Source: Podarcis vaucheri (taxonomy: Eukaryota). From it: a stretch of 64,000 nucleotides of DNA. This document shows positions 54,001 to 57,000 of this stretch, one piece after another; the stretch's first letter is position 1, and each line of letters starts with the position of its first letter. The stretch lies in assembly GCA_965113315.1 (NCBI GenBank), contig OZ220382.1. The stretch is one strand, 5' to 3'. The position numbers are program-made.

Positions 54001-57000
54001 ACTAGAGAACAAGGGAAGTGCTCATGAGTTCTGGCACTTTTAAAAAAATAGAAAAAAATATTATACGCATAACAAAACATGAAGCTGAAATATATTGACC
54101 AGACAAAATGTCAATGAGTAACAGTTTTTTTTAATAATTCACATACATAGTGAAAAGGTGCCATGATGCCATTCTGCGAGCTATGGTAAAATAGCATGCA
54201 TATCTGCAGCAAAGCAAAAGGAAAAAAGTGCCCCATTTCTGCTTTCAGTTGTATACTAGGAATCCGTTTTGTGAACTTTATGATACAAAAAGCTAACCAT
54301 TTTTTTTTAAAAAAGCAGCAACCCAAATATAACTATGAAACAAAACTTATCAAGAACTATACAACCACTACACCTCATTTGGATGCTGTGCCAATGAAGT
54401 AGCTCATTTATTAACTTATTAAAAGAAAAGCCACTCCTAATATATTTTCTCTTTTTTAAAAAAAGTATTTTTTATTGAGTTTTCCATTAAATCATATTCA
54501 CCTTTTGTTTCATAATTCTATGACTTAATATATTACTCTGTAAGAGCATTGACCTCCTGCCCTCCCTCTTTCTGACTTCCACATAACTTTACATATTCTT
54601 CGCATTTCTATAAGCACTTATTTACCCTTTGTCAAATTATAATATTTCACCTTATTATCAGTAAATCACTTCCTTATAGTTACATTACAAAACATTTCAA
54701 CTCAAGCCTACAAACATTTTCAAATGTTTACAATTTTCTTTCATATAAAATATAAATTTATTCCAGGCCTTTTGAAACAGTCCGTCACTCTGAGTCCAGA
54801 TTATGTCTTCAAACTCCATCATCTTGACCTGCCGGTCTTCCAGTGTTGGAAGTTCCTGCTGCTTCCATTTCTGAGCCAGAAGTGTCCTTGCAGCCATTAT
54901 GGCATACATAAACATGGCACAGCCAGGAGGGCCAGGCTGTGGAAGAAGTGGTATTTGTTGGCCGTCTCATAGAGCTCTTTCAAGTAGTCATCTCGGTCGC
55001 TGGGACGGAAATTGTGAGCCCCGCAGGCTGCCGTCCTGACGGCCGCAGCCCAGCTCAGCGCTCCGAGCCGTCGGAAAAATGCCCCGGCGCCCGCCATATC
55101 AATTATATTTCTAACATTGTCCTTCATCTGTTTACCAGGTAGAAATCCAGTTTGGTTCTTTCCAATCTCCTCTCCCAATACATCTTTAAGTCTATTGGCC
55201 AATATACTGGCGAATAATTTGTAATCATTATTTAGGAGCGAGATTGGCCTATAATTTTTCACCTGCCTTATGTCCGTGTCTTGTTTGTAAATTAGTGTAA
55301 TATGGGCTTCTTTCCAAGTAATATATTTTCTTTTTTTAAGAGGGAAAACACATTGGTTTAAAACGTTATATATTTCCAGCCTGATGTAGGGGCTGTGTTG
55401 TTGTTTTTTAAGCCAAATTCAATGGAAGTGTATTGTTTGAAGAGTGAATAGATGTATATGCAGAATATGTAAACGTGCACTGCGAAAGCTTTGTAATATT
55501 ACTTTTGTGATTTGGGGTAAAATTGATGGATGAAGAAAGTGTTGAACTAAAAGCAAACTGTGTGCTTAACTTGTGTTTGTATCTTTTCGTTTCTAAAAGG
55601 ACCTTTACAAATTGAATTTAAAATAAACAAGCAAACTCCAAAATTTTAAAAAATAATAATAGAAAAAATAATACTGGTTGGAGCTTTTCTCTGCTTCCTC
55701 TAGCTACTCTCCCACAATATATACTGCTGGGGAGGACAAAGCATATGCACAGCTCTGCCACCCATCTCTCAATATGCCCTATTCATTTTACTTCTGGTTG
55801 GGCTGGAGCTGGCATTTTTCTGATGTCAGCACATTCTGTCATAGTTGCCTCAAAGCCAATAATTGTTATGCTTTAAAATGCAGAGGAAAAGAACAATAAT
55901 AGTTATTTTATATGGGTACATGGACAAAGTCTTGTTTGCTATGGCAAGTAAAAATTGCACAAAAGAAGAAAAAGTAATTCTACCAGACTTAAGAAATCCA
56001 TCTTAATATCATTCATAGAGCAATAAATAGCATTAAGTGGGCCAATCCAGACATAGATCATACAACCCTAAACCACTTGGAGACACAAGATGTATTTTGT
56101 TCCAGTCAAATAAATCACTTATTTTCTAAGGGAGCAATATTTACAGCAGTGGAAGGGGAACAAATTAACACTATTTTCAGTATAGAAAAGGCCCAGGGGT
56201 GGAATTAGGAAGTATAGGCACATCGATCCCACCCACCCCTCACACCCTTTATTTATTTTTTATTAATGAGAACCTACAAATCCAGTCTGTCAAGACTGGC
56301 CTGTATGGGCAGGGGTACCTTTACAAATCCACTGTTTTATGGAATTGTAGTTGAACAAGGGAAACAAGAAAATAGTATTGCCGCTCTCTTTCATTGGTTT
56401 TGTTAAAATAGGATTTTCCATTCTGACTGGCCAATTTGACTGCAGCTGCCTGCTGCTGATATTATGGATAATGTTTTCTTAATGAAACTTGGATCAGAAT
56501 GCTATGCTGTCCTGCATTTCAGATGGAAATAGGAACACTCTTCCTGGCCCAGTCAATTACCACCCCCTACTAGTTTTTATCAGCCAAGAAGGTCAAGAGT
56601 CCGAAGCACAAGTCGTTGCCCTGACTAATACAAACACCTTGTCCACGTCCTCAAGCCTTACTATCTGAAAATTATCCAAAACAACAGGACTAGACAGTGC
56701 TCTGGACACCCATGAGACTCATCTGCTATAACAGCAGAGTCAAGATCTCAGGGGATGCAAGTGGTTTTATCCTCAAAATGCTTTGCAAACAAGTCACAGT
56801 GGTTACACATAGCTACCACCTCCTTGAGTCGGACTGTCTTTCTTCTTCTTTGGCGATCACTTGTAGCTGAGTAGTATTGCTAACTTCAATACCACTATGT
56901 ATGCTTAATGATGAGCCCACACCACTGTTCAGATGTATGCAGCCAGATCTTTCCTCCACTTGCGTGGAGCCATCTTTCAACTTGTTTCCTTTCCCTAAGT

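What the first reader, a model, noticed from the sequence alone, without database searches (positions are those of the whole stretch)
54438..55340. Tripartite L1-TMEM256-L1 retro-chimera inside a single TSD pair
Seen: an L1 RT segment is fused in frame exactly at the TMEM256 ATG (...NIID|MAGAG...). After ~60 codons the sequence returns to the L1 ORF2 C-terminus, 3'UTR and tail. One TSD of at least 13 bp, running into TTTT/AA, flanks the whole. Known: two-part L1 template-switch chimeras (e.g. U6-L1) are well described. Inference: a double switch (L1 to mRNA to L1) is rarer. It could be a one-off event or a gene-carrying non-autonomous L1, and it shows a mechanism able to build the mosaics seen here.
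Basis: partly seen in the sequence, partly recalled or inferred. Interest (0 to 1): 0.65.

Follow-up and report, generated by a model that had tools for sequence, protein, structure and literature searches.

The report
L1–TMEM256–L1 chimeric retrocopy in a lizard
A single 868-base insertion in a lizard-like genome joins two separate pieces of an L1 jumping gene around the first 61 codons of the host gene TMEM256, a rare but already described kind of copying accident and almost certainly a dead one-off.

Summary
On the minus strand, 55318→54451 holds three pieces:
- An L1 ORF2 reverse-transcriptase piece (73 codons, equal to aa 503-575 of a 1244-aa lizard ORF2).
- TMEM256 codons 1-61, fused in frame at the ATG.
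- The last 72 codons of L1 ORF2 (aa 1174-1241), out of frame, followed by the stop, a 239-nt 3'UTR and a short A tail.

One direct repeat flanks the whole. It is 13 nt exact, or 19 nt with one mismatch, and sits at a TTTTTTT/AA endonuclease site. No A/T run and no repeat longer than 7 nt marks either internal junction.

About 598 ORF2 codons are missing between the two L1 pieces. The TMEM256 piece runs unbroken across an exon boundary inferred from isoforms of other species. It stops 7 codons before the next inferred boundary.

Best reading: one L1 retrotransposition event in which the reverse transcriptase changed template twice (L1 to TMEM256 mRNA to L1). Tripartite LINE chimeras made by double template jumps are already in print (PMC2104539). 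This one differs because both jumps land inside the acceptor RNAs and the third part is L1 again.

Copy number, the empty site, the parent gene and read support could not be checked, because no eukaryotic genome collection was available. It is a modestly interesting new variant of a known kind.

The parts
55319..55337 (-). 5' copy of the target-site duplication. 55319-55331 is the exact 13-mer. 55332-55337 is the T run on the + strand, which ends at the TTTT/AA nick site 55337|55338.
   Evidence: the repeat finder family D1; sequence; chance tests.
55098..55318 (-). L1 ORF2 reverse-transcriptase piece, 5'-truncated. It holds 73 codons (W..NIID), equal to aa 503-575 of the 1244-aa lizard ORF2 P0064 and to residues 511-581 of solved L1 ORF2p. 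It lacks the catalytic part of the RT.
   Evidence: Pfam RVT_1 E 1.3e-9. 72.6% identity to P0064 and 75% to P0066. PDB 8sxt/8uw3 at E 5e-9. The apparent homology upstream of 55319 is not significant (0.6 bits, E 120).
54915..55097 (-). TMEM256 (DUF423) codons 1-61, starting at the ATG and in frame with the RT piece. GC is 63% and there are 15 CpG. The a at 54915 may be shared with the next part.
   Evidence: Pfam DUF423 E 1.1e-8. 41 TMEM256 hits, the best being squamates at 84%. Alignments A1 and A2. GC. 6 residues unseen in 15 orthologues.
54697..54914 (-). L1 ORF2 C-terminal 72 codons plus the stop (54699-54697). It is shifted by one base relative to the TMEM256 frame and equals aa 1174-1241 of P0064.
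   Evidence: tblastn and blastp against lizard ORF2 proteins. 11 hits in the representative library. No Pfam family.
54458..54696 (-). L1 3'UTR (239 nt, GC about 28%) with AATAAA near 54476->54471. It ends in a T7 run.
   Evidence: Sequence; composition; no Rfam match. That it is an L1 3'UTR is inferred from its position after the ORF2 stop. No second copy was available for comparison.
54451..54457 (-). Short A tail (A6 at 54457->54452, then g at 54451). Alternatively it is the A-rich start of a 19-nt TSD carrying one substitution.
   Evidence: Sequence; runs listed.
54438..54450 (-). 3' copy of the target-site duplication (exact 13-mer; extends to 54456 with one mismatch at 54451).
   Evidence: (the longest word shared by the two ends is 13 nt; all other pairs of boundaries share 7 nt or less).

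Best explanation
This is one L1-driven insertion, made by target-primed reverse transcription, in which the cDNA was built on three template stretches in turn.

Shown:
- The window's + strand carries TTTTTTT/AA at 55337|55338, the L1 endonuclease type of site.
- The T run adjoins the cDNA of the A tail.
- One 13-19 nt duplication flanks the whole 868-nt body.

Inferred order of events:
1. The reverse transcriptase copied the L1 RNA from its tail through the 239-nt 3'UTR and the last 72 codons of ORF2.
2. It left the L1 RNA at about ORF2 codon 1174 and continued on a spliced TMEM256 mRNA, entering it internally at codon 61.
3. It copied 183 nt up to the A of the start codon. This may be the 5' end of that mRNA or of a fragment of it.
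4. It went back to an L1 RNA, again internally, at about codon 575, and copied 221 nt.
5. Synthesis stopped at about codon 502/503 (ordinary 5' truncation) and the end was joined to the target, sharing 1 nt.

At each internal junction 0-2 nt could belong to either partner.

The product is dead on arrival. It has no promoter. Its RT fragment holds 73 of about 1244 codons. Its TMEM256 fragment holds 61 of about 116 codons and already carries substitutions at otherwise invariant positions. The frame ends 5 codons after the second junction.
For: Three parts, same orientation, directly abutted.

The L1 pieces are in L1 order. On the same ORF2 proteins they map to aa 503-575 and 1174-1241.

The relatives are true L1. 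P0064 aligns over 4-1204 to solved L1 ORF2p residues 9-1223 at E 1e-175, against E 7e-23 for R2.

A single TSD sits at an endonuclease-type site.

No word longer than 7 nt is shared between any internal junction and any other boundary. All four A/T runs of 6 or more in the tested span lie at or next to the two ends (three at the 3' end, one at the 5' TSD copy), and none at a junction.

The TMEM256 piece has no 3' end or poly(A) of its own, so it cannot be an ordinary retrocopy.

It is colinear with the protein across the point where two Amia isoforms converge and where a partial frog protein begins (GFRRSDRD), so it came from spliced RNA.

The second junction lies 7 codons before the point where two read-through predictions diverge, each starting with V = GTN. 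It is therefore not at a splice donor.

Neighbouring residues in relatives allow up to 2 nt of microhomology. Ile follows NIID in 17 of 22 relatives. L, I, F or M precedes FMYA in 15 of 15.

Double template jumps giving TSD-flanked tripartite chimeras are documented (PMC2104539). Same-orientation multi-template insertions were seen after induced L1 expression (PMC11702581, passages).
Against: The event was not observed, and nothing here separates a switch during cDNA synthesis from a chimeric RNA made beforehand.

In the published chimeras the acceptor RNA is copied from its 3' end, and the 5' parts are full-length RNAs (PMC2104539, section 3). Here both acceptors were entered internally, which is less usual for that model.

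Whether the two L1 pieces come from the same L1 subfamily could not be decided. Scores against 14 ORF2 proteins that cover both pieces do not correlate (Spearman 0.08, p 0.77). The closest relatives are only 75% (RT) and 44% (C-terminus) identical.

The A tail is very short (6 A).

The exon boundaries are inferred from other species' isoforms, not from this animal's gene.

There are no reads, no empty site and no parent gene.
Confidence: 0.58

Rival explanations
1. The chimeric RNA came first. An L1-TMEM256-L1 RNA already existed, made by RNA ligation or recombination, or transcribed from an older chimeric locus. It was then reverse-transcribed in one pass. In the second case this copy is a daughter of a small non-autonomous family.
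For: It gives the same sequence as the best explanation, with one TSD and one tail. RNA ligation before reverse transcription is an accepted route for U6/L1 chimeras. Same-orientation composite insertions are read either way (PMC11702581 passage; bioRxiv 10.1101/2025.02.02.635956 introduction passage).
Against: No other copy of any piece lies in the 64-kb window. 0 of 48 and 0 of 25 database proteins cover both sides of a junction, and none carries RVT_1 together with DUF423. Ligation joins RNA ends, so it would need four breaks at internal positions. The element lacks a promoter, so a family is unlikely.
Confidence: 0.2
2. DNA-level repair. An ordinary 5'-truncated L1 of about 2.7 kb (ORF2 codon 503 to the tail) inserted here. 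Later a break removed about 1.8 kb inside it, and a stray TMEM256 cDNA fragment was captured as filler during end joining.
For: The TSD and the L1 colinearity fit this equally well. The 0-2 nt of possible overlap at the junctions is also typical of end joining.
Against: It needs two independent events plus capture of a spliced cDNA fragment. The fragment lies in the L1's orientation (chance 1 in 2). It begins within 2 nt of the start codon, which a random filler has no reason to do.
Confidence: 0.1
3. A single switch only. The TMEM256 transcript of this animal already carried an L1-derived leader directly before its ATG. The RT piece plus codons 1-61 are then one copy of the 5' part of that mRNA, joined to an L1 3' end, like the mRNA/L1 chimeras of Law and Burns.
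For: In the human genome, 15 of 17 mRNA/L1 chimeras map to the start of the transcript. Most are in sense orientation upstream of the L1 (bioRxiv 10.1101/2025.02.02.635956, section 24 read). The TMEM256 part here is also the start of the coding sequence and in sense.
Against: A genomic L1 fragment ends with its own 3' end, not at ORF2 codon 575 abutting an ATG with no other leader base. The isoform comparisons place the first inferred exon boundary at about codon 29, not at the ATG. The second junction is not at the inferred splice donor, whereas 6 of those 17 end exactly at donors.
Confidence: 0.06
4. Separate nested insertions or an assembly artefact. Either three unrelated insertions happen to lie side by side, or the contig joins reads wrongly.
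For: None specific. Reads were not available, so a misjoin cannot be formally excluded. The window comes from a region rich in near-identical duplications.
Against: Neither the RT piece nor the TMEM256 piece has a 3' end, a tail or a flanking repeat of its own. The locus lies outside the duplicated array and is single-copy in the window. A misjoin would not place an exact 13-nt duplication at an endonuclease site around the whole.
Confidence: 0.04

Closest known systems
Tripartite LINE-mediated chimeric retroelements (Buzdin/Gogvadze type; WEIRD-MgSINE-MGL in Magnaporthe, B2-U6-L1 in mouse; PMC2104539)
   Same: Three retro-copied parts are joined directly in one orientation. The 3' part is a 5'-truncated LINE. 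One pair of short direct repeats (14-16 bp there, 13-19 here) flanks the whole. A double template jump during LINE reverse transcription is proposed.
   Different: In those elements three different RNAs take part, and each acceptor is copied from its 3' end. The 5' part of the fungal chimera is a full-length RNA. Here only two RNA species take part (L1 twice). Both acceptors are entered internally. The 5'-most part is an internal L1 fragment, and the middle part is the 5' half of a coding sequence.
mRNA/LINE-1 chimeric insertions with 5' exons (Law and Burns, bioRxiv 10.1101/2025.02.02.635956, later Cell Genomics)
   Same: The first coding exons of a host gene lie in sense orientation upstream of an L1 3' segment, inside one TSD with an endonuclease motif.
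   Different: Those L1 parts are mostly near full length, and 6 of 17 junctions lie exactly at splice donors, which suggests trans-splicing. Here the L1 3' part is only 458 nt. The junction is 7 codons short of the inferred donor, and a further L1 piece precedes the mRNA piece.
Bipartite U6/L1 chimeras
   Same: An L1 3' end is joined to a cellular RNA copy inside one TSD. Either template switching or RNA ligation is invoked.
   Different: U6 is full length and lies at the 5' end, with one junction only. This comparison rests partly on recalled knowledge and partly on the passages shown.
Ordinary processed pseudogene of TMEM256
   Same: It derives from spliced mRNA through the L1 machinery.
   Different: It has no 3' part, no poly(A) and no TSD of its own. 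It holds only codons 1-61.

Membership tests
L1-clade LINE insertion made by target-primed reverse transcription | ORF2 sequence of the L1 clade (APE endonuclease + RT + L1-type C-terminal segment) | tested here: met
   The RT piece matches RVT_1 and solved L1 ORF2p residues 511-581. Its full-length relative P0064 aligns end to end with L1 ORF2p at E 1e-175, against R2 at E 7e-23. The C-terminal piece maps to aa 1174-1241 of the same proteins.
L1-clade LINE insertion made by target-primed reverse transcription | 3' end with an A tail, target-site duplication, TTTT/AA-type nick site, 5' truncation | tested here: met
   The tail is A6 only. The TSD is 13 nt exact or 18/19. TTTTTTT/AA lies at 55337|55338. 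L1 starts at ORF2 codon 502/503.
LINE-mediated chimeric retroelement (features listed in PMC2104539, section 3) | Parts directly joined in the same transcriptional orientation, flanked by short direct repeats, with a 5'-truncated LINE as the 3' part | tested here: met
LINE-mediated chimeric retroelement (features listed in PMC2104539, section 3) | [quoted passage not shown] | tested here: not met
   The TMEM256 part holds codons 1-61 of about 116 and has no 3' part. The 5'-most part is 73 internal codons of ORF2. Whether the TMEM256 part reaches the true 5' end of the mRNA could not be tested.
Processed pseudogene (standard retrocopy) | Intronless copy of the spliced mRNA | tested here: inconclusive
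   The piece is colinear with the protein across the isoform convergence point at about codon 29/30. The intron positions of this animal's own gene were not available.
Processed pseudogene (standard retrocopy) | Own 3' end, poly(A) and TSD | tested here: not met
   There is no A/T run of 6 or more at 54915 or 55097, and no shared word longer than 7 nt.
L1 twin priming (5' inversion) | The 5' segment is inverted relative to the 3' segment | tested here: not met
   Both L1 pieces read on the minus strand.
L1 3' or 5' transduction | Extra sequence beyond an L1 end, copied from the genomic flank of the source element | tested here: not met
   The extra sequence lies between two L1 pieces and looks spliced.
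Non-autonomous, gene-carrying L1 family | Several copies sharing the junctions, each with its own TSD | not testable with these tools
   The element is single in the window, and no junction-spanning protein was found (0 of 48; 0 of 25). No eukaryotic genome collection was on hand.
Functional TMEM256/DUF423 gene | Full-length protein of about 112-118 aa with conserved residues | tested here: not met
   Only 61 codons are present. 6 residues are unseen in 15 orthologues, and two of them lie at positions invariant in all 15 (G16W, Y25C).

The most novel reading that the evidence does not exclude
Lizard L1 reverse transcriptase may often leave and re-enter its own RNA at internal sites. That would make internally deleted L1s carrying host exon fragments in frame with ORF2. 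This locus would then be one sample of a recurrent route by which host coding sequence is spliced into L1 ORF2 (exon shuffling into a retrotransposon), or the founder or daughter of a small L1-derived family that carries the TMEM256 start.
Probability: 0.07. Interest if true: 0.55.

Novelty: new variant of a known kind. Interest (0 to 1): 0.3.

Why it matters
It is a clean natural example, with a TSD and an endonuclease site, of an L1 cDNA assembled from three template stretches in a non-mammalian vertebrate. The reverse transcriptase returns to L1 after an excursion onto a host mRNA, and both entries are internal. Published tripartite chimeras are few and come from a fungus, the mouse and human. 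This case adds a squamate, and it shows that a host coding start can be fused in frame to ORF2 sequence. It is one dead copy, so its value is as a mechanistic footprint rather than as a functional element.

Tried and rejected
(1) L1 homology upstream of the 5' TSD copy. BLAST alignments to 12 of 28 ORF2 relatives ran on to about 55400, always with gaps of 2-14 residues and in several different registers. If real, this would have put the repeat inside L1 and refuted the TSD. I built a profile of the 40 residues that precede TWKEA in 23 ORF2 proteins. It scores the upstream 33-aa peptide at 0.6 bits, E 120 among 2705 window frames. The 16 other relatives, including most of the closest (P0066, P0060, P0064), start aligning only after the TSD. 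I rejected it as a gapped-extension artefact.

(2) Whether the two L1 pieces come from the same subfamily. The rank test on 14 ORF2 proteins was uninformative.

(3) Other copies in the window. There are none by blastn. tblastn gave only one weak match, on the opposite strand of the RT piece itself (55156-55248, E 0.002), which I take as chance.

(4) Junction-spanning proteins. There are 0 of 48 at near lengths (41 DUF423 only, 7 RVT_1 only; highest coverage 54%). There are 0 of 25 among longer proteins (all RVT_1, highest coverage 60%).

(5) The C-terminal piece has no Pfam family. The search of the representative library returned only 11 proteins, mostly short fragments, and none could be used as a full-length ORF2.

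(6) Rfam on 54000-55800 gave no match at E 0.1 or better, so no SINE or small RNA is hidden in the element.

(7) Literature. TMEM256 together with retrotransposon appears in 2 papers, both unrelated by title. Three searches on chimeras and template switching (listing 15, 15 and 12 of 87, 44 and 73 papers) showed no L1-mRNA-L1 case in titles or abstracts. I read only parts of three papers, and supplements were closed.

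Full report
**What is there**

The feature lies on the minus strand. Read 5'→3' in its own sense, it consists of:
- the flank ...ccctctt;
- the 5' repeat copy, 55337/55331→55319;
- an L1 ORF2 reverse-transcriptase piece, 55318→55098;
- TMEM256 codons 1-61, 55097→54915;
- the last 72 codons of L1 ORF2 plus the stop, 54914→54697;
- a 239-nt AT-rich 3'UTR with AATAAA, 54696→54458;
- A6 and one g, 54457→54451;
- the 3' repeat copy, 54450→54438;
- the flank ggagtgg....

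The body between the exact repeats is 868 nt.

**The three parts**

- *One frame, two families.* The frame 54897..55418(-) carries both RVT_1 (E 1.3e-9, above Pfam's cut-off) and DUF423, the TMEM256 family (E 9.9e-9, above the cut-off).
- *RT piece.* It is 72.6% identical to aa 503-575 of the 1244-aa Podarcis ORF2 protein P0064 and 75% identical to P0066. It aligns to residues 511-581 of solved L1 ORF2p.
- *L1 clade.* P0064 aligns over its residues 4-1204 with that structure's sequence at E 1e-175, against E 7e-23 for R2. The relatives are therefore L1 in the strict sense.
- *TMEM256 piece.* It finds 41 TMEM256 proteins. The best are squamates: Podarcis muralis 84%, Euleptes 84%, Pogona 82%, then Rhineura and Anolis.
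- *End of TMEM256 homology.* It ends after ...HSLALLAVP, where all 15 aligned orthologues go on with H/Q-C-R/H.
- *C-terminal piece.* From there a frame shifted by one base reads the L1 ORF2 C-terminus. It matches aa 1174-1241 of P0064 (44%), aa 1113-1188 of P0072 (65.9 bits) and 12 more of the 28 ORF2 relatives at E<1e-3. It also matches 11 short L1 C-terminal proteins in the representative library.
- *What is missing.* About 598 ORF2 codons (about 1.8 kb) are absent between the two L1 pieces.
- *Composition.* GC marks the mosaic: 35% (RT piece), 63% (TMEM256 piece), 39% (C-terminal coding piece) and 28% (3'UTR and tail).

I do not take the window for human. Its TMEM256 and L1 relatives are squamate.

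**The repeat**

- On the + strand, TAATATATTTTCT occurs at 54438-54450 and 55319-55331. Extended to 19 nt, the copies differ at one base.
- It is the longest direct repeat in the 1.2-kb region.
- It is the only in-register 13-mer match at that spacing among 62,108 positions of the window.
- 22 of 1000 Markov-1 simulations hold any repeat of 13 nt or more anywhere in such a region, and that count does not yet require it to sit at both ends of the homology.
- The upper copy runs into TTTTTTT/AA (55337|55338), the L1 endonuclease type of site. The T run of the lower copy is followed directly by the cDNA of the L1 3' end.
- Target T's cannot be told from copied tail, so the TSD is 13 to 19 nt and the tail 6 to about 1 A.

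**A threat to the TSD, tested**

BLAST alignments to 12 of 28 ORF2 relatives continued upstream of the 5' repeat copy, to about 55400. If that homology were real, the repeat would lie inside L1.
- The extensions need gaps of 2-14 residues and use different registers for different families.
- The other 16 relatives do not extend. They include most of the closest ones.
- A profile of the 40 residues upstream of TWKEA, built from 23 ORF2 proteins, gives the upstream peptide 0.6 bits (E 120).

I conclude that L1 starts at the repeat, sharing at most its last base (the a at 55319).

**No sub-insertions**

Among the four boundaries, only the two outer ones share a long word (13 nt). Every other pair shares 7 nt or less. 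All four A or T runs of 6 or more lie at or next to the two ends, and none lies at a junction. Neither the RT piece nor the TMEM256 piece has a 3' end of its own, so neither could have inserted alone by the L1 route. Rfam finds no small RNA in the region.

**RNA origin of the TMEM256 piece**

This animal's gene could not be fetched, so I used isoforms of other species as a proxy.
- The two Amia isoforms differ up to GFRRSDRD and are identical after it. A partial frog protein begins at FRRSDRD. This places an exon boundary at about codon 29/30 of the fragment, and the fragment is unbroken there.
- Two predictions that read into an intron (Podarcis P0001 and Erpetoichthys P0022) diverge after HCR(Y/K)P(MM/LL). 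Both continue with V, as expected of a GT donor. This places the next boundary 7 codons beyond the second junction.
- The piece therefore looks spliced, and its 3' junction is not at a splice donor. That speaks against the trans-splicing route proposed for human mRNA/L1 chimeras (bioRxiv 10.1101/2025.02.02.635956, section 24 read).

No spliced model had to be built or joined. The piece was searched as it lies in the window.

**Junction detail**

Relatives have Ile after NIID in 17 of 22 cases, so the AT of the ATG may be shared with L1. L, I, F or M precedes FMYA in 15 of 15 cases, so the a at 54915, or the whole ATG at 54915-54913, may be L1. That leaves 0-2 nt of possible overlap at each junction. 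The first fusion is in frame, which has a 1 in 3 chance. The second is not, and the frame stops after CLCMP.

**State of the copy**

The TMEM256 piece has 6 residues seen in none of 15 orthologues. Two lie at positions invariant in all 15 (G16W, Y25C). It is 67-84% identical to them, against 80-92% among the ten closest orthologues. It still keeps 15 CpG in 182 nt, and the TSD is nearly intact. It is therefore a decaying copy, but not an ancient one. It has no promoter, no catalytic RT motifs and no full TMEM256.

**Mechanism**

The simplest account is one target-primed reverse transcription with two template changes: L1 3' end, then TMEM256 mRNA entered at codon 61 and left at the ATG, then L1 RNA entered at about codon 575, then ordinary 5' truncation.
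- Shown: the anatomy, the single TSD and the nick site.
- Inferred: the order of events and the switches themselves.

**Rivals**

- A chimeric RNA made beforehand, by ligation or by transcription of an older chimeric locus.
- A later internal deletion of a 2.7-kb L1, with a captured cDNA as filler.
- A TMEM256 transcript that already had an L1-derived leader, which would need only one switch.
- Nested insertions or misassembly.

The sequence alone cannot separate the first two from the best reading. The last two are unlikely for the reasons given in their entries.

**Comparison with what is known**

Tripartite LINE chimeras flanked by direct repeats of 14-16 bp, explained by double template jumps, were described in Magnaporthe and the mouse. 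Two human cases lack clear repeats (PMC2104539; abstract and sections 3 and 8 read). Composite same-orientation insertions also arise after induced L1 expression, and are read as template switching or prior RNA ligation (PMC11702581, passages only).

This locus shares the orientation rule, the LINE 3' part and the single TSD. It fails the listed feature that 5' parts are full-length cellular RNAs. It also differs in that both acceptors are entered internally and the third part is L1 again. I therefore file it as a new variant of a known kind, not as a plain member.

I found no L1-mRNA-L1 case in the listings, and nothing relevant on TMEM256. These were title and abstract listings plus parts of three papers. 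The supplements were closed, including Additional file 2 of PMC2104539 and the chimera tables of Law and Burns, and they may hold similar cases.

**What stayed unchecked**

Copy number in the genome, the empty site in relatives, the parent gene's exons and leader, L1 subfamily assignment and read support. The three N runs of the window were left as they are. They lie far from this locus.

**Verdict**

This is a real, single, dead L1-TMEM256-L1 retro-chimera, most likely made by a double template switch. Interest is modest (0.3).

Noticed in passing
window 1-49500: Most of the window is a tandem array of 14-15 kb units with a 28.95-kb higher-order period at 99.1-99.6% identity (for example 1-9141 = 28955-38099 and 9302-20548 = 38254-49489). 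Each of the three N runs (9143-9301, 24250-24399, 38100-38253) sits at the same place in its copy of the unit. The chimera lies outside the array.
   Followed up: partly
window 10134-10484(-), 25232-25582(-), 39086-39487(-): Each copy of the array carries an open frame with a helix-loop-helix domain (Pfam HLH, E 3.4e-12 for the first copy). From memory, its sequence resembles the ID (inhibitor of DNA binding) proteins. The third copy has a different N-terminal part. It could be a tandemly amplified ID-like gene or retrocopy.
   Followed up: partly
window 12753-13427(-), 27853-28527(-), 41699-42373(-): A 224-aa open frame repeated in each unit matches the C-terminal part of the Reticulon domain (Pfam PF02453, E 1.7e-9, profile positions 90-154 of 157).
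   Followed up: no
window 50000-50945(-): A second, unrelated L1 ORF2 3' fragment (about aa 925-1237 of lizard ORF2 proteins, 24-47% identity) lies 4 kb from the chimera on the same strand. It shares no nucleotide similarity with the chimera's L1 pieces.
   Followed up: partly
window 5380-5734, 6618-6952, 7851-8185 and their copies near 21000-23600 and 34300-37300 (all -): Short ORF2-like stretches (about aa 925-1040) sit inside a 1.2-kb sub-repeat (5298-7275 = 6516-8508 at 96%). An old L1 fragment has therefore been amplified as part of a tandem repeat.
   Followed up: no
window 60999-61826(-); related frames at 12136-12552, 27236-27652, 41082-41498 (-): A 275-aa open frame with no Pfam family shows weak tblastn similarity to the C-terminal third of lizard L1 ORF2 (P0062 aa 1021-1135 to 61406-61065, E 8e-4). 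Shorter relatives recur in each array unit.
   Followed up: no
window 55156-55248(+): The opposite strand of the RT piece gives a weak protein match to the RT piece itself (31 aa, 45%, E 0.002). I take it as chance.
   Followed up: no
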